A stretch of DNA of 64,000 nt from sequence record MT446416.1. The stretch is one strand, 5' to 3'. Position numbers and translations under genes: made by a program. The notes below the pieces were generated by a model. That model did not search any database, was not told the origin of the DNA, and saw only the letters and a program-made list of their open reading frames with translations. The DNA comes from Escherichia virus TH47. Positions 7,796 to 16,718 of this stretch are shown piece by piece; within the stretch, counting starts at the first letter, position 1; every line of letters starts with the position of its first letter.

Positions 7796-7824
7796 ATAGA
7801 AAAAGGACGCGAAATGCGTCCTTA
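7796..7824 (-). terminator. terminator downstream of the 7822..8559 endonuclease gene
   Basis: Minus-strand reading AAGGACGCatttcGCGTCCTT followed by tttctat. Confidence 0.55.
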
Positions 7825-8559
7825 TGATATATTTTCTAGAACAATTTGAATATGATCTTCATCGTATTTTATTCTCAACAATTTAATATTATTTTGATTA
7901 CAATAATCATTCTTTATTTTATCATTTTTCTGAGTTAGTTTTAGTTTTTCTTTACCACCCCAACCACATGATTCAAAATGTTGAAGACCATCATATTCAA
8001 TACACATATTAAACGTTGGAAGATAAAAATCAAATCTCAAAGGAAGTATATTTTTACAATCATCAAACGTTTTTTCCATTACACACGATACATTTTTCAT
8101 ATCCAAAATGTTACGTATGTCTTTAACTGCCTTTGACATTTTATCAGATATTGCACATTTAATACAACCCTTTCCTGATAAATGGTCATTTGCTCTTTGT
8201 AAAAAATCACCATGTATTTTACAAGTTATAGTGAGTTTTTGTTTGTTGTTTTTGCCATATACAACTTTATCATAGTTATATCTATCACTATGTATTTTAT
8301 AAGATTCCTCAATGAAGGTTTCAGTTGTATGTTTGGAACGTCTTGAACATTTAGTACATCCAGCACCTCTGTAATGGACTTTAACAAATTGCTCATAATC
8401 ACCATGTATTTTACAAGTTACAATAACTTTTGAATTTACATTCTCATATACTGTTTTATCATATAAGAATATATCACCATAAATTGATTTTGATTTTTCT
8501 ATAAATTGTTCTGTTGTTTGCTTTTTATTATTTGCACCCATAACCGTATCACCTAACAA
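7822..8559 (-). CDS. putative homing endonuclease (tandem Cys/His repeats plus C-terminal Vsr/DUF559-like nuclease fold)
   Basis: Two N-terminal repeats (TTExFIEx...YDKxVY...CKIHGDF...GxGCxKC) and C-terminal FDFYLP...CIEYDGLQHF resembling a restriction-endonuclease-like fold. Flanked by hairpin terminators on both sides. Confidence 0.5.
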   Translation of the reverse strand: MLGDTVMGANNKKQTTEQFIEKSKSIYGDIFLYDKTVYENVNSKVIVTCKIHGDYEQFVKVHYRGAGCTKCSRRSKHTTETFIEESYKIHSDRYNYDKVVYGKNNKQKLTITCKIHGDFLQRANDHLSGKGCIKCAISDKMSKAVKDIRNILDMKNVSCVMEKTFDDCKNILPLRFDFYLPTFNMCIEYDGLQHFESCGWGGKEKLKLTQKNDKIKNDYCNQNNIKLLRIKYDEDHIQIVLENIS

Positions 8560-8601: not shown

Positions 8602-9063
8602 TTAGTCTAGTCGGCTATCTTCAATACCCGCAGCACGTAGTCTCACAATATTGTTTAACTGAAAAGCTTTCATCTCTAAGGATTTAACAATACTGGAATA
8701 TGTGTTACGGATATATGATACTTCATTTATAAGTTCAGATAATTCACAAACTTCTTTATCACCCTCAACATACTTTTTACAGTCAGAGGATGATAGTGCT
8801 CGACGATATGCTTCAAGGAAATATTTAAACTTTTCAGCTTGTAGTTGACGCATTTCAATTTCTAGCATTTCAAGTACAGCTTCAAGTTCTTGAAGCTGGC
8901 TGAGACGTGTCTCATGCCAGCCGGGAATCTCCTGTGCAATCTTCTCAATAATGCCAATCTTCTTAACTTCACGACGAGCTTCTTCAGTTTCTTTTTCGAA
9001 GTACTCAATCATGTCGATAATTTTAGATTTGTCATCTTTGATAATCCAGTGCCAAGGTTTCAT
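8602..9063 (-). CDS. UvsY-like recombination mediator (tentative)
   Basis: 153 aa; immediately downstream of and translationally coupled to uvsX. C-terminal segment IVKSLEMKAFQLNNIVRLRAAG loosely resembles the T4 UvsY C-terminus. Confidence 0.4.
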   Translation of the reverse strand: MKPWHWIIKDDKSKIIDMIEYFEKETEEARREVKKIGIIEKIAQEIPGWHETRLSQLQELEAVLEMLEIEMRQLQAEKFKYFLEAYRRALSSSDCKKYVEGDKEVCELSELINEVSYIRNTYSSIVKSLEMKAFQLNNIVRLRAAGIEDSRLD

Positions 9064-10181
9064 TATTCCTCACTAGTGTCGATATCAGTACCAAATGATT
9101 CATCACCTTTTTCTTCTTCTTTGACGTCTTCAATCAACGGGTGACGTTTGAATTGATTCATAACTAAATCAAGGCAAGAATCTTCGTTACGCATCCATTC
9201 TTTACGATATTTTAGAATCTGTTCACCAGTGTCTATATCAACGTACATTAGACGGTTACCCGATTTAACGATAAGTTCATATTTCTCAAACATATCTAGT
9301 AGACCACTGCGTGGGTCCATACCTTTATCCCAAGGAATTTTAATCTCAACATCTTCAAATGGCTTGTTGTAACGAGTCTTCATGACTTTACATTTAGAAC
9401 GAATACCACTTACATCTGAAGTCTTGTTGCCTTCTTCATCTTCTTTAAGTTTTAGTTTACCCATTGCGATAACCATAGAAGATGCATAAATCAAACCACT
9501 ACCACCAGATACTTTTGGGTCAGGGTTGAACATATCTTGGGATTCATAACTATGGTTTACACAAACCATACCAATGTTAAGTGAACCAATCGAGTTTACG
9601 CAGTTGGTGATGTAAGCTTTAAGCTGTTTAGGTTTGTGACCCATATCACCTTTCAAGTTACCAGCTTTCATCTGGTCATTAGCAACTTCAGTATTCAACA
9701 TACCAATTGAGTCGATAATGAATAATACTTTTTGACGTTCTTCTTTAGGAGTATTTTCGTATTCTTTACGATACCCTTCGATGAACTCATAGGTAAATTT
9801 AGCAACATCACCAATCATACCCATGTTTACTTTTAGTAGTTTTTCTTCTGAAGTGTCTACGCCTAGTGCTTGTAGCCAATCTGAATCCAATGCGTTCTCG
9901 GAATCAATCATAACAACAAAGATACCTTGTTGTTGTGCTTCACGGGCGATGTTTCCAGAAACGATAAATGATTTACCAGAACCAGATTCACCAGCAAACA
10001 TTGTTACTTTACCTAGTGGAATACCACGGTCAAAATAACCACTAATACGATAGTTCAAAGCAAAGTTACCAGTACTAATCCATGTATCAGGATCATGAAA
10101 GCCTACACTAACACCAGTATTCTTTTTAACACTACCAGTACTATTTTTTAGAATGTTTGCAAAACCACTTGTCATTTTCAT
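9063..10181 (-). CDS. uvsX: UvsX, RecA-like recombinase
   Basis: Walker A GESGSGKSF, Walker B-like VVMIDS and overall RecA/UvsX layout; 372 aa. Confidence 0.9.
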   Translation of the reverse strand: MKMTSGFANILKNSTGSVKKNTGVSVGFHDPDTWISTGNFALNYRISGYFDRGIPLGKVTMFAGESGSGKSFIVSGNIAREAQQQGIFVVMIDSENALDSDWLQALGVDTSEEKLLKVNMGMIGDVAKFTYEFIEGYRKEYENTPKEERQKVLFIIDSIGMLNTEVANDQMKAGNLKGDMGHKPKQLKAYITNCVNSIGSLNIGMVCVNHSYESQDMFNPDPKVSGGSGLIYASSMVIAMGKLKLKEDEEGNKTSDVSGIRSKCKVMKTRYNKPFEDVEIKIPWDKGMDPRSGLLDMFEKYELIVKSGNRLMYVDIDTGEQILKYRKEWMRNEDSCLDLVMNQFKRHPLIEDVKEEEKGDESFGTDIDTSEE

Positions 10182-10204: not shown

Positions 10205-10233
10205 AATAAAACGGGGCAAACTCCGTTGCCCCT
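10205..10233 (-). terminator. terminator between gene 32 and uvsX
   Basis: Minus-strand reading GGGGCAAcggagtTTGCCCC followed by gttttattt. Confidence 0.55.
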
Positions 10234-10250
10234 TAACTTTTCAAATACTA

Positions 10251-11318
10251 TTACTTACCTTGTTGTTTCAAACGAGCAACTAGTGCAGATGCAGAAAGTT
10301 GTTCTTTTGGAGCTTCAGCTACTGGTGCTGGTGCAGTAGCTACTGGTTCAGCAGCAGGAGTAGGAGTAGCTACTGGTGCTTGCGGTGCAGGAGTTTGTGC
10401 AGGAGCAGGTTGTTGTACTGGAGCTTGTGGAGCAGGTTTGTTTTCACTAATAGTACCAGTTGTTGGTTTTTGTACACCTGCTGGACGGTAAGCGAAAGCC
10501 CAACGTGCAGGGTCATAAGGTTTACCATCAACAGATGCTTCGAACATTTCTTCGATAGCTTTTAGTTCTTCTGGAGTTGGTTGTTTTGGCATAAAATCAT
10601 TTAGATTATATAGACCAAACTTTTCAATCGCTGCTAGTTCTTCTTCATTGAGTGGACGCTCGGACATGGAGAATTGAGACATGTCATAGCTATTGTAACC
10701 ACCACCATTCTTAGTTTTAACAATACCAAAGTCACGACCATGAATATAGTGAGTTGGTAGTTCTTTGATGCCTGGATTTAGCAGGATAGATTTAACTTTA
10801 TCAAAGATATCTTTGTTAGCTAGGATACGACGGATTGGGTTTTCTGGAGCAATATCGTCTTTTACTGCTACGCTATCAGGAGCAACGAAACATTGCATTA
10901 GATAGGTTTTCTTTTTCCAGTAACGACCAGCCATTGCTTTCAGTTCTTCGTTTCCAGTTTCATTCGCACTTTGGAACCATTGACGTACTTCTTTAAGAAT
11001 TGGACATGATTTAGGAACCCACATTTCGTTACATGGTACTTGAACGGTAACTTTATCAGTGTGCATACCAACAATACCTTGGAACGTTAGGTTGATCATA
11101 TCACGTTCACGCCAGAAGAATGGGTTAGACTCATCAGCATCTGGTAGAAAACGTAGGTTTAGTGGTTCATTGTAAGGGACATTCCAGAAAGCTAGGAAAG
11201 AATCGGCTTTACGGTCGCCTGTAAATGTACCATTCTTCTGTGCTTCTGCTTTTTCTTGTTCAGCTTTTAGTTTTGCACGAATTTCAGCTAGAGTTTGCAT
11301 ATTGGGCTTCCTTGTCAT
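10251..11318 (-). CDS. 32: gp32-like ssDNA-binding protein with Pro/Ala-rich C-terminal tail
   Basis: N-terminal LNLRFLPDADESNPFFW resembles the T4 gp32 core (IRFLPSKNDEQAPF); His/Cys cluster HTDKVTVQVPCNEMWVPKSCP; strong AAGGAAG SD. C-terminus is a PAPQAP-type low-complexity linker. Confidence 0.75.
   Translation of the reverse strand: MTRKPNMQTLAEIRAKLKAEQEKAEAQKNGTFTGDRKADSFLAFWNVPYNEPLNLRFLPDADESNPFFWRERDMINLTFQGIVGMHTDKVTVQVPCNEMWVPKSCPILKEVRQWFQSANETGNEELKAMAGRYWKKKTYLMQCFVAPDSVAVKDDIAPENPIRRILANKDIFDKVKSILLNPGIKELPTHYIHGRDFGIVKTKNGGGYNSYDMSQFSMSERPLNEEELAAIEKFGLYNLNDFMPKQPTPEELKAIEEMFEASVDGKPYDPARWAFAYRPAGVQKPTTGTISENKPAPQAPVQQPAPAQTPAPQAPVATPTPAAEPVATAPAPVAEAPKEQLSASALVARLKQQGK
10290..10440. 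repeat. imperfect short tandem repeats (GCAGGAGNN / GCTACTGGT units) encoding the Pro/Ala-rich tail of gp32
   Basis: Repeated gctactggtgct, gcaggagtaggagta and gcaggagcaggt units on the plus strand, within the 3' end of gene 32. Confidence 0.6.

Positions 11319-11462: not shown

Positions 11463-16718
<5,256 letters not shown>

What the first reader, a model, noticed from the sequence alone, without database searches (positions are those of the whole stretch)
10251..10450. gp32-like SSB ends in a long Pro/Ala-rich repeat tail instead of the acidic C-terminal domain
The last 60 or so residues are a PAPQAP-type low-complexity linker encoded by short DNA repeats, ending in a basic KQQGK. In T4 the acidic C-terminal domain mediates contacts with replication and recombination proteins, so a different tail implies different partner recognition. 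The repeats are also prone to slippage.
Basis: partly seen in the sequence, partly recalled or inferred. Interest (0 to 1): 0.4.

Follow-up and report, generated by a model that had tools for sequence, protein, structure and literature searches.

The report
Jumbo-phage SSB: neutral linker, conserved basic tip
The DNA-coating protein of this giant E. coli phage does end in a proline/alanine-rich, non-acidic tail, but that tail is a fast-changing flexible spacer carrying a short helix that all relatives conserve, so it is a family trait and probably a tethered docking peptide.

Summary
ORF 10251-11318 (minus strand) is a gp32-type ssDNA-binding protein of a RaK2/Asteriusvirus-like jumbo phage. 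It lies upstream of UvsX and UvsY.

- **Composition:** its last ~73 residues are not acidic (net +2, against -11 for the last 60 residues of T4 gp32). They are 52% Pro+Ala over 56 residues.
the tail has two parts. The first is a disordered linker (residues 283-338) that varies in sequence and length. The second is a terminal helix, SASALVARLKQQGK. Its core [LI][LVI]Ax[LI] lies 3-9 residues from the C-terminus in 134 of 135 homologs, and a looser form of the motif persists in more distant relatives down to about 35% identity.
- **Shared with T4:** five of the eight T4-type and more distant gp32 sequences sampled also end in a variable spacer plus D-L-L-x-x-L (T4: DLDDLLNDL). The architecture is therefore shared, and only the charge is inverted.
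- **Slippage:** supported by comparison. Near-identical phages differ by in-frame linker indels of 2-9 residues, and the two examined at DNA level lie between short direct repeats.

The most likely function, inferred and not shown, is a flexible tether presenting a partner-docking helix. The tip also resembles the N-terminal cooperativity helix, which suggests self-competition. I rate this a new variant of a known kind, of moderate interest.

The parts
10251..11318 (-). gp32-type ssDNA-binding protein ORF, 355 aa from the first ATG. The stop codon is at 10251-10253.
   Evidence: Pfam PF08804 and phrog_1192 matches. AF2 plus Foldseek to T4/RB69 gp32 cores. 99% identical to the SSB of Ecwhy_1, fEgEco12 and others.
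11298..11300 (-). Probable true start codon (Met7 of the ORF), giving a 349-aa protein that starts MQTLAEIRAKL.
   Evidence: Shine-Dalgarno AAGGAAG at 11307-11313, six bases upstream; the ATG at 11318 has none. Homologs begin M-x-[ST]-LAEIR, and most database members of the cluster are 349 aa.
11235..11291 (-). N-terminal helix (residues 10-28, TLAEIRAKLKAEQEKAEAQ), the counterpart of the T4 gp32 cooperativity (B) domain helix. The T4 basic KRKST motif is absent.
   Evidence: AF2 helix 10-28, pLDDT 70-83. E12, I13, R14, A15 and L17 are nearly invariant. T4 N-terminus for comparison.
10473..11201 (-). Folded gp32 core (residues 40-282), including the clade-specific conserved C-terminal extension YDPARWAFAYRPAGV (268-282).
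   Evidence: pLDDT 91-98 for the blocks covering residues 41-280. Invariant Y268, Y277, P279, G281; nearly invariant D269, P270, R272, W273, R278, V282. Foldseek E 1e-9.
10305..10472 (-). Disordered Pro/Ala/Thr/Gln/Val-rich linker (residues 283-338), net charge about -1, hypervariable in sequence and length.
   Evidence: AF2 pLDDT below 50 over 288-341. Composition and charge. Against PBECO4: linker 60% identical, core 95%, tip 100%. In-frame indels in relatives. Local GC rises to 52% against about 37%.
10317..10357 (.). The only tandem repeat called in the tail: 21 nt x 2, 80% matches.
   Evidence: Other imperfect direct repeats of 23-42 nt at 61-78% identity.
10254..10304 (-). Conserved C-terminal tip (residues 339-355, EQLSASALVARLKQQGK): an amphipathic basic helix. 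Motif: S-x-x-[DA]-[LI]-[LVI]-A-x-[LI]-[KR].
   Evidence: Core motif 3-9 residues from the C-terminus in 134/135 homologs, against 9/6750 shuffled tails. AF2 helix 343-353, pLDDT about 68. Net charge +3 over SASALVARLKQQGK.
10213..10232 (-). Terminator-like GC-rich hairpin with a T-run, between the SSB stop and the UvsX start.
   Evidence: This is a consensus scan only.
9063..10181 (-). UvsX-like RecA-family recombinase, immediately downstream.
   Evidence: Pfam RecA, phrog_97 E 2.2e-69.
8602..9063 (-). UvsY-like recombination mediator.
   Evidence: Pfam UvsY PF11056, phrog_231 E 1.2e-25.

Best explanation
The tail is the standard C-terminal module of the jumbo-phage branch of the gp32 family. 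It has two parts with different jobs.

1. Residues 283-338 form an intrinsically disordered Pro/Ala-rich spacer. Selection acts on its composition and approximate length, not on its sequence, so it drifts and gains or loses short in-frame segments by slippage between short repeats.
2. Residues about 339-355 fold into a short amphipathic basic helix (SASALVARLKQQGK) that is under strong purifying selection.

The most likely function is that the spacer holds this helix several nanometres from the ssDNA-bound core, where it docks onto other proteins of the phage replication and recombination machinery. Candidates include UvsX and UvsY (encoded next door), helicases and the polymerase. This would parallel how an amphipathic helix in the T4 gp32 C-terminal region docks onto the Dda helicase, and how the tip of bacterial SSB recruits its partners.

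Because the tail is neutral to basic, it cannot act as the electrostatic DNA mimic that occludes the binding cleft, which is the role proposed for the acidic end of T4 gp32.

**Shown:** the fold, the disorder prediction, the composition, the conservation pattern and the indels.
**Inferred:** docking to partners, the identity of those partners, and loss of acidic autoinhibition.
For: - **Architecture.** AF2 gives a confident core, a linker with pLDDT below 50 over 288-341, and a terminal helix at 343-353.
- **Tip conservation.** The tip core lies 3-9 residues from the C-terminus in 134/135 homologs, against 0.13% of shuffled tails. A looser form persists in 50%-identity cluster representatives down to about 35% identity, typically as DILAMIRNR.
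- **Differential evolution.** Against PBECO4 the core is 95% identical, the linker 60% and the tip 100%. Against RaK2 the figures are 81, 36 and 59%.
- **Motif duplication.** Some lineages carry a second copy of the tip motif inside the linker (RaK2 AASDLLNRLKTN plus SAADLIARLKQQ). This behaviour is typical of short linear motifs.
- **Indels only in the linker.** The length from the start to YRPAGV is constant at 270 residues.
- **Charge.** Window tail +2 against T4 -11.
- **T4 precedent.** He et al. 2024 (PMC11551737) show that residues 248-270 of T4 gp32 form an amphipathic helix that binds Dda. They propose that the acidic 273-301 stretch serves ssDNA-cleft functions.
- **Cross-clade test.** A motif matrix trained only on jumbo-clade tips ranks the extreme C-terminus DLDDLLNDL first among 293 positions in T4 gp32.
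- **Context.** UvsX and UvsY lie directly downstream. A helicase, exonucleases and a DNA polymerase lie within 12 kb.
Against: - No binding partner was identified.
- No other ORF in the 64-kb window carries a similar motif that might indicate a shared hub.
- The pLDDT of the tip helix is only about 68.
- The evidence is conservation plus analogy. The same data fit a self-interaction role (first rival).
- The T4 Dda-binding helix (248-270) is not positionally equivalent to the tip.
- He et al. considered T4 residues 281-301 unlikely to make specific contacts.
Confidence: 0.6

Rival explanations
1. The tip is a tethered copy of the protein's own N-terminal cooperativity helix. It would compete with the N-helix of a neighbouring SSB for the same docking site on the core, or pair with that helix. 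That would tune filament cooperativity, turnover and dissociation rather than recruit other proteins. The two roles could coexist.
For: - Scanning the tip matrix over each protein with its tail removed puts the best hit on the N-terminal helix, in one register (TLAEIRAKLKAE against SASALVARLKQQ). This happens in 106 of 122 distinct cores, and in 5 more the best hit falls at positions 21-30, which I read as the same helix in N-terminally extended ORFs.
- hhalign of the tip profile against the rest of the family aligns to the same helix, P 0.027.
- In T4-like proteins that were not used for training, the same matrix ranks the C-terminal tip and the N-helix as follows: T4 1st and 2nd, IME281 2nd and 1st, Konradin 3rd and 1st, Aeh1 2nd and 3rd.
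- For T4, a 2025 preprint (10.1101/2025.09.05.674579, citing Cashen et al.) reports that the full C-terminal domain is required to disrupt cooperative contacts between neighbouring gp32 monomers.
- He et al. 2024 see the N-terminus as a helix packed on helix 141-152 of the neighbouring core.
Against: - The scores are modest: mean 5 bits, against a shuffled 95th percentile of 3.7.
- The N-helix is nearly invariant, so the 111 hits amount to roughly one observation.
- Both segments are generic amphipathic helices (acidic-L-x-A-x-L).
- I had no access to model coordinates or complex prediction, so no contact could be examined.
Confidence: 0.25
2. The tail has no specific docking function. It would be an entropic bristle, or a disordered linker that promotes solubility, spacing, condensate formation or linker-mediated cooperativity, as proposed for the disordered linker of E. 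coli SSB. The terminal basic residues would add only weak non-specific DNA affinity.
For: - Linker composition is conserved while its sequence is not (pooled: A 19%, P 13%, T 13%, V 11%).
- The window's linker contains many PxxP-like spacings (direct reading of the sequence).
- The tip is positively charged in 93% of homologs.
Against: The hydrophobic positions of the tip ([LI][LVI]Ax[LI]) are far more conserved than the charges, and its distance from the C-terminus is fixed. This is not expected for a non-specific basic patch or a bristle.
Confidence: 0.1
3. Artefact: a frameshift or sequencing error in a low-complexity stretch means the real stop lies upstream, so the tail is not translated.
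For: One relative, CMSTMSU (flagged UNVERIFIED_ORG), has this gene broken into several small ORFs. This shows that such errors occur in this group.
Against: - The frame is kept and the conserved tip is read in more than 130 independent homologs.
- Eight genomes at 99% or higher identity show the same 355-codon frame.
- All indels in relatives are multiples of three.
- A terminator-like hairpin follows the stop.
Confidence: 0.01

Closest known systems
Bacteriophage T4 gp32 (and RB69 gp32), Pfam PF08804
   Same: - Same OB-fold core (Foldseek E 1e-9).
- An N-terminal helix aligned with the T4 cooperativity domain (AEL-A-M against AEI-A-L).
- A C-terminal low-complexity spacer followed by a terminal D-L-L-x-x-L type motif.
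- Co-encoded with UvsX and UvsY.
   Different: - The tail is neutral to basic (+2) rather than strongly acidic (-11).
- The spacer is Pro/Ala-rich and about 56 aa long, rather than Ser/Asp-rich and short.
- There is no counterpart of the Dda-binding helix at T4 248-270. A conserved YDPxRWxxYRPxGV extension takes its place.
- The basic KRKST motif is missing at the N-terminus.
- Only two of the four T4 zinc ligands are conserved.
Bacterial SSB C-terminal tail (disordered linker plus acidic tip DDDIPF)
   Same: - Same logic: DNA-binding core, then a Pro/Gly/Gln-rich disordered linker of variable length, then a short conserved tip at the very C-terminus used as a protein-docking site.
- Some homologs of the window protein carry a DDxPF/W motif inside their linker.
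   Different: - Unrelated core: a gp32 monomer, not a homotetrameric SSB OB fold.
- The tip here is a basic amphipathic helix, not an acidic peptide ending in an aromatic residue.
- The window protein has no DDxPF motif.
phrog_1192, the SSB of RaK2-like and related jumbo phages (PBECO4, 121Q, RaK2, GAP32, CBB, fHe-Yen9-04, PA5oct, Atu_ph07 and others)
   Same: The window protein is a full-length member (E 2.5e-97, profile positions 2-326 of 326). It shares the core, linker and tip.
   Different: Nothing beyond linker sequence and length. The window gene is 99% identical to those of Ecwhy_1, fEgEco12, BF17 and others.
Ala/Pro-rich inter-domain linkers of 2-oxo acid dehydrogenase E2 chains (from my own knowledge, not tested here)
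   Same: Very similar composition (runs of A, P, with Q/E/K/T/V). These linkers are known as extended, flexible tethers that let a small domain reach distant sites.
   Different: Unrelated proteins. This is an analogy of physical behaviour only.

Membership tests
T4 gp32-type SSB (Pfam PF08804) | Sequence match above the curated Pfam threshold | tested here: met
   29.8 bits against a cut-off of 26.8, residues 55-251. A profile of 58 homologs hits PDB gp32 chains at E 5e-6.
T4 gp32-type SSB (Pfam PF08804) | gp32 core fold (OB fold with its helical subdomain) | tested here: met
   AF2 mean pLDDT 83, core above 90. Foldseek to 2a1k, 1gpc and 8gme: E 1e-9 to 4e-8, target TM 0.6-0.74.
T4 gp32-type SSB (Pfam PF08804) | Zinc site His64-Cys77-Cys87-Cys90 | tested here: not met
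   Only C96 and C105, aligned to T4 C77 and C87, are invariant. T4 C90 aligns to Leu (CPILKE). No conserved His corresponds to H64.
T4 gp32-type SSB (Pfam PF08804) | [quoted passage not shown] | tested here: inconclusive
   The helix is present and nearly invariant (AF2 10-28). The KRKST-type motif is absent if translation starts at Met7 (MQTLAEIR), as the RBS and the homologs indicate.
T4 gp32-type SSB (Pfam PF08804) | Acidic C-terminal (A) domain | tested here: not met
   Net charge +2 over residues 282-355, against -11 over the last 60 residues of T4 and -4 to -11 in eight T4-type and more distant gp32 sequences.
T4 gp32-type SSB (Pfam PF08804) | Cooperative ssDNA binding and recruitment of replication and recombination proteins | not testable with these tools
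   Requires biochemistry. Only genomic context (UvsX and UvsY downstream) supports the role.
Jumbo-phage SSB clade (phrog_1192) | Full-length match including the C-terminal region | tested here: met
   E 2.5e-97, protein 7-353 against profile 2-326 of 326.
Jumbo-phage SSB clade (phrog_1192) | Clade signature defined here: YRPxGV anchor, variable linker, terminal [LI][LVI]Ax[LI] helix | tested here: met
   Present in the window protein and in 134 of 135 homologs.
Bacterial SSB-type tail (disordered linker plus acidic tip) | Disordered linker between the core and a conserved C-terminal tip | tested here: met
   pLDDT below 50 over 288-341. Hypervariable sequence and length.
Bacterial SSB-type tail (disordered linker plus acidic tip) | Acidic tip ending in hydrophobic or aromatic residues (DDDIPF) | tested here: not met
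   The tip is SASALVARLKQQGK (+3). The window tail has no DDxPF motif, although 18 of 219 homologs carry one inside the linker.

The most novel reading that the evidence does not exclude
Across the whole gp32 superfamily, the extreme C-terminal tip would be a tethered pseudo-copy of the N-terminal cooperativity helix: DLDDLLNDL in T4, SASALVARLK in this jumbo-phage clade. It would compete for the site on the neighbouring core where the N-helix docks. Every monomer would then carry its own built-in, concentration-independent antagonist of filament cooperativity. That would explain why the T4 C-terminal domain is needed for rapid filament reorganisation and dissociation. The jumbo-phage clade would be a natural charge-swapped version in which this role is separated from the acidic DNA-mimic role.
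Probability: 0.2. Interest if true: 0.65.

Novelty: new variant of a known kind. Interest (0 to 1): 0.42.

Why it matters
T4 gp32 is the textbook model for single-stranded DNA-binding proteins. Its acidic C-terminal domain is central to current models of autoinhibition, junction recognition and partner recruitment.

This work shows a large natural clade that keeps the gp32 core and N-terminal helix but replaces the acidic tail. The clade comprises about 90 isolated jumbo phages plus many metagenomic relatives. In place of the acidic tail it has a neutral Pro/Ala spacer ending in a conserved basic helix. That gives a natural experiment for separating what the charge does from what the terminal helix does.

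The work also points to the last nine residues of T4 gp32 itself as a conserved motif that recent structural work set aside.

Practically, the linker is a hotspot for in-frame indels. It is therefore a poor target for primers or typing, and length differences there should not be read as assembly errors.

Tried and rejected
- **Tandem-repeat array:** rejected. TRF finds only one 21-nt x2 repeat at 80% identity. The other repeats are imperfect, 61-78%.
- **Frameshift or false stop:** rejected.
- **Plus-strand ORF 10299-10565** (88 aa, Cys/Ser/Trp-rich): judged a by-product of the low-complexity antisense sequence. It was not searched against any library.
- **Shared motif elsewhere in the window:** scanning all 82 ORFs of at least 70 aa with the tip matrix found nothing above 10 bits except the SSB itself at 25 bits.
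- **Prior description in the literature:** searches found no description of the tip motif or of the non-acidic tail in jumbo-phage gp32. The string DDLLNDL occurs in no searchable paper. Iyer et al. 2021 mention only that group 2 jumbo phages have a gp32-type SSB.
- **Beta-clamp-binding motif:** the QLSASAL stretch looks superficially like QLxLxL. I rejected this because the QL is not conserved outside the closest relatives.
- **Contacts of the tip in the model:** I could not inspect the 3D coordinates or predicted aligned error of the AF2 model, so whether the tip contacts the core could not be assessed. A second AF2 job was not used, because pLDDT alone would not settle the question.

Full report
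**What the window is.** The region around the finding is 99% identical over 3.8 kb to Escherichia jumbo phages Ecwhy_1, fEgEco12, EC.P1, BF17 and others. It is about 88% identical to PBECO4 and 121Q (Asteriusvirus). On the minus strand the gene order is:
- virion structural protein (11473-12777);
- the ORF in question (10251-11318);
- UvsX-like recombinase (9063-10181);
- UvsY-like mediator (8602-9063);
- an HNH endonuclease (7822-8559).

A helicase, two exonuclease-type proteins and a family B DNA polymerase lie within 12 kb.

**Checking the observation.**
- *Family.* The ORF encodes a gp32-type SSB. It matches Pfam PF08804 above threshold and phrog_1192 over its full length at E 2.5e-97.
- *Model.* An AlphaFold2 model built on 58 homologs has mean pLDDT 83, with blocks at 91-98 over residues 41-280. 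It shows an N-terminal helix at 10-28, a stretch at 288-341 with pLDDT below 50, and a terminal helix at 343-353. Foldseek finds the RB69 and T4 gp32 cores at E 1e-9.
- *Composition.* Residues 283-338 are 52% Pro+Ala, against 15% in the rest of the protein (P 2e-10).
- *Charge.* The tail carries +2. The last 60 residues of T4 gp32 carry -11, and eight T4-type and more distant gp32 sequences range from -4 to -11. The T4 sequence was verified from a T4 record.

First, the DNA repetition is weak. Second, the last 17 residues are not low complexity.

**The stop codon is real.** The frame is conserved in all relatives. Indels are multiples of three. A terminator-like hairpin follows the stop.

**Anatomy from comparison.** I translated the orthologs of 14 named jumbo phages. 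I also collected 120 database homologs and 148 representatives of 50%-identity clusters. All share one layout.
- *Core.* A conserved core ends in YDPxRWxxYRPxGV.
- *Linker.* A linker of 23-95 residues follows (median 58). It is rich in A, P, T, V, S, Q and E.
- *Tip.* A short motif sits at the very C-terminus: S-x-x-[DA]-[LI]-[LVI]-A-x-[LI]-[KR].

The hydrophobic core of the motif lies 3-9 residues from the C-terminus in 134 of 135 sequences. The same is true of 9 of 6750 composition-matched shuffles. The single exception (P0056, 327 aa) looks truncated.

The three parts evolve at different rates:

| Compared with | Core identity | Linker identity | Tip identity |
|---|---|---|---|
| PBECO4 | 95% | 60% | 100% |
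| RaK2 | 81% | 36% | 59% |

Some lineages carry a second copy of the motif inside the linker (RaK2 and several metagenomic proteins). Among isolated phages this SSB type occurs only in jumbo phages: RaK2-like, PA5oct-like, Atu_ph07, SCTP-2, XaC1 and Vibrio 2.275.O.

**Slippage.**
- PBECO4, SP27 and E9.1 differ by 1-3 bases in the first 750 nt of the gene.
- SP27 lacks 27 nt and E9.1 lacks 18 nt in the linker. Each deletion lies between short direct repeats (CTGCTCCAGT; CCAGTnnCACC).
- In the window's own 90% cluster, one member lacks AQTP and another lacks AP.
- In three clusters, the length from the start to the YRPAGV anchor is always 270 residues, while tail length ranges from 65 to 81.
- Most amino-acid substitutions within the cluster also fall in the linker.

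Read-level data were not available.

**Relation to T4.** Five of the eight T4-type and more distant gp32 sequences I fetched also end in a variable low-complexity spacer followed by a terminal hydrophobic motif: T4 DLDDLLNDL, IME281 GLDDLLAGL, Konradin ELNDLLNGL, Aeh1 DLDDLLNEI and V07 ELDALLADL. More distant ones end in ...YFARLAEED...YAGLLED and ...FEQFLKQD.

A matrix trained only on jumbo-clade tips ranks DLDDLLNDL first of 293 positions in T4 gp32. That score is 9.9 bits, against a shuffled 95th percentile of 7.0. The spacer-plus-terminal-helix architecture therefore looks ancestral, and the jumbo clade differs mainly in charge. The sample of T4-type sequences is small (eight).

**How it probably works.** He et al. 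2024 (PMC11551737) showed that residues 248-270 of T4 gp32 form an amphipathic helix that docks on the Dda helicase. They proposed that the acidic 273-301 stretch serves ssDNA-cleft functions.

By analogy, and given the conservation pattern, the best explanation is that the Pro/Ala spacer is a flexible tether and the tip helix is a docking peptide for replication and recombination partners. With a neutral tail, the electrostatic DNA-mimic autoinhibition proposed for T4 cannot operate in the same way. These functional steps are inferred, not shown.

**A second reading.** The tip resembles the protein's own N-terminal helix.
- The tip matrix picks TLAEIRAKLKAE as the best non-tail hit in 106 of 122 distinct cores. 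In 5 more the best hit falls at positions 21-30, which I read as the same helix in N-terminally extended ORFs.
- hhalign gives the same register at P 0.027.
- In T4-like proteins the matrix ranks both the C-terminal tip and the N-helix (STAELAAQM, DPSQLAAQL) among the top three positions.
- The T4 N-helix docks on the neighbouring core.
- The T4 C-terminal domain is reported to be needed to disrupt cooperative contacts.

The tip may therefore compete with the N-helix. The statistics are modest and both segments are generic amphipathic helices, so I give this 0.2-0.25.

**Membership.** The protein is a member of the gp32 family by sequence and fold, and a typical member of phrog_1192. It fails or leaves unresolved three features of the T4 prototype:
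- the acidic C-terminal domain (not met);
- the full Cys3His zinc site, of which only C96 and C105 are conserved (not met);
- the basic KRKST motif, which is absent if translation starts at Met7, although the N-terminal helix itself is present (inconclusive).

Met7 as the true start is indicated by a good Shine-Dalgarno sequence and by the homologs.

**Novelty and score.** The gene is already in databases, annotated as SSB or as hypothetical. I found no paper describing the neutral linker, the conserved basic tip, or the shared terminal motif with T4. I rate it a new variant of a known kind, with interest 0.42. The tail is not peculiar to this phage, but the clade-wide pattern offers a natural test of what the gp32 tail's charge and tip each do.

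Noticed in passing
window 11298-11318 (minus strand): The longest ORF starts at ATG 11318, but the ATG at 11300 (Met7) has a strong Shine-Dalgarno sequence (AAGGAAG, 11307-11313). Homologs start M-x-[ST]-LAEIR, and most database entries are 349 aa. The true protein is probably 349 aa.
   Followed up: yes
window 10251-11318, residues C96 and C105: Only two of the four T4 gp32 zinc ligands (equivalents of C77 and C87) are conserved in this clade. The positions of H64 and C90 are not. The zinc site may be lost or rebuilt.
   Followed up: partly
homologs P0098, P0111, P0114, P0115, P0139, P0182, P0226; L013 (PA5oct); L019 (Aeh1): 18 of 219 homologs carry a motif like the bacterial SSB tip (DDDIPF, DEDDEIPF, DDLPW) inside the linker. 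One protein ends in ...DEDSIPY, and Aeh1 gp32 has EDDDVPF. This suggests some phage gp32 proteins also mimic the host SSB tail. The window protein lacks the motif.
   Followed up: partly
L005 (RaK2) and P0024, P0025, P0027, P0088, P0095, P0096: These homologs have two copies of the tip motif: one mid-linker and one terminal.
   Followed up: partly
L013 (PA5oct, EST35_0207); 121Q, UB and 7t3 records: The orthologous SSB is annotated 'structural protein'.
   Followed up: no
L016 (T4 gp32, residues 293-301 and 6-14): The jumbo-clade tip matrix ranks T4's last nine residues first and its N-terminal helix second. In the five Straboviridae gp32 sequences sampled the terminal motif is [DE]L[DN][DA]LLxx[LI], despite variable spacers. 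He et al. 2024 judged residues 281-301 unlikely to make specific interactions and did not include them in their peptide binding screen.
   Followed up: partly
window 12810-14147 (minus strand): This 445-aa ORF matches only positions 447-890 of the large-terminase profile phrog_36964. It may be the C-terminal half of a split terminase gene. No N-terminal half is adjacent.
   Followed up: no
window 7822-8559 (minus strand): An HNH-type homing endonuclease ORF with a TTG start sits directly after uvsY in the recombination gene cluster.
   Followed up: no
L002 (CMSTMSU, MH494197.1): In this UNVERIFIED_ORG record the SSB gene is broken into three small ORFs. The likely cause is assembly frameshifts, not biology.
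   Followed up: partly
window 10275-10500: GC content rises to 50-52%, against about 36-38% in the flanks, with strong GC skew. The cause is the Pro/Ala codons of the linker. The 88-aa plus-strand ORF at 10299-10565 is a by-product.
   Followed up: yes
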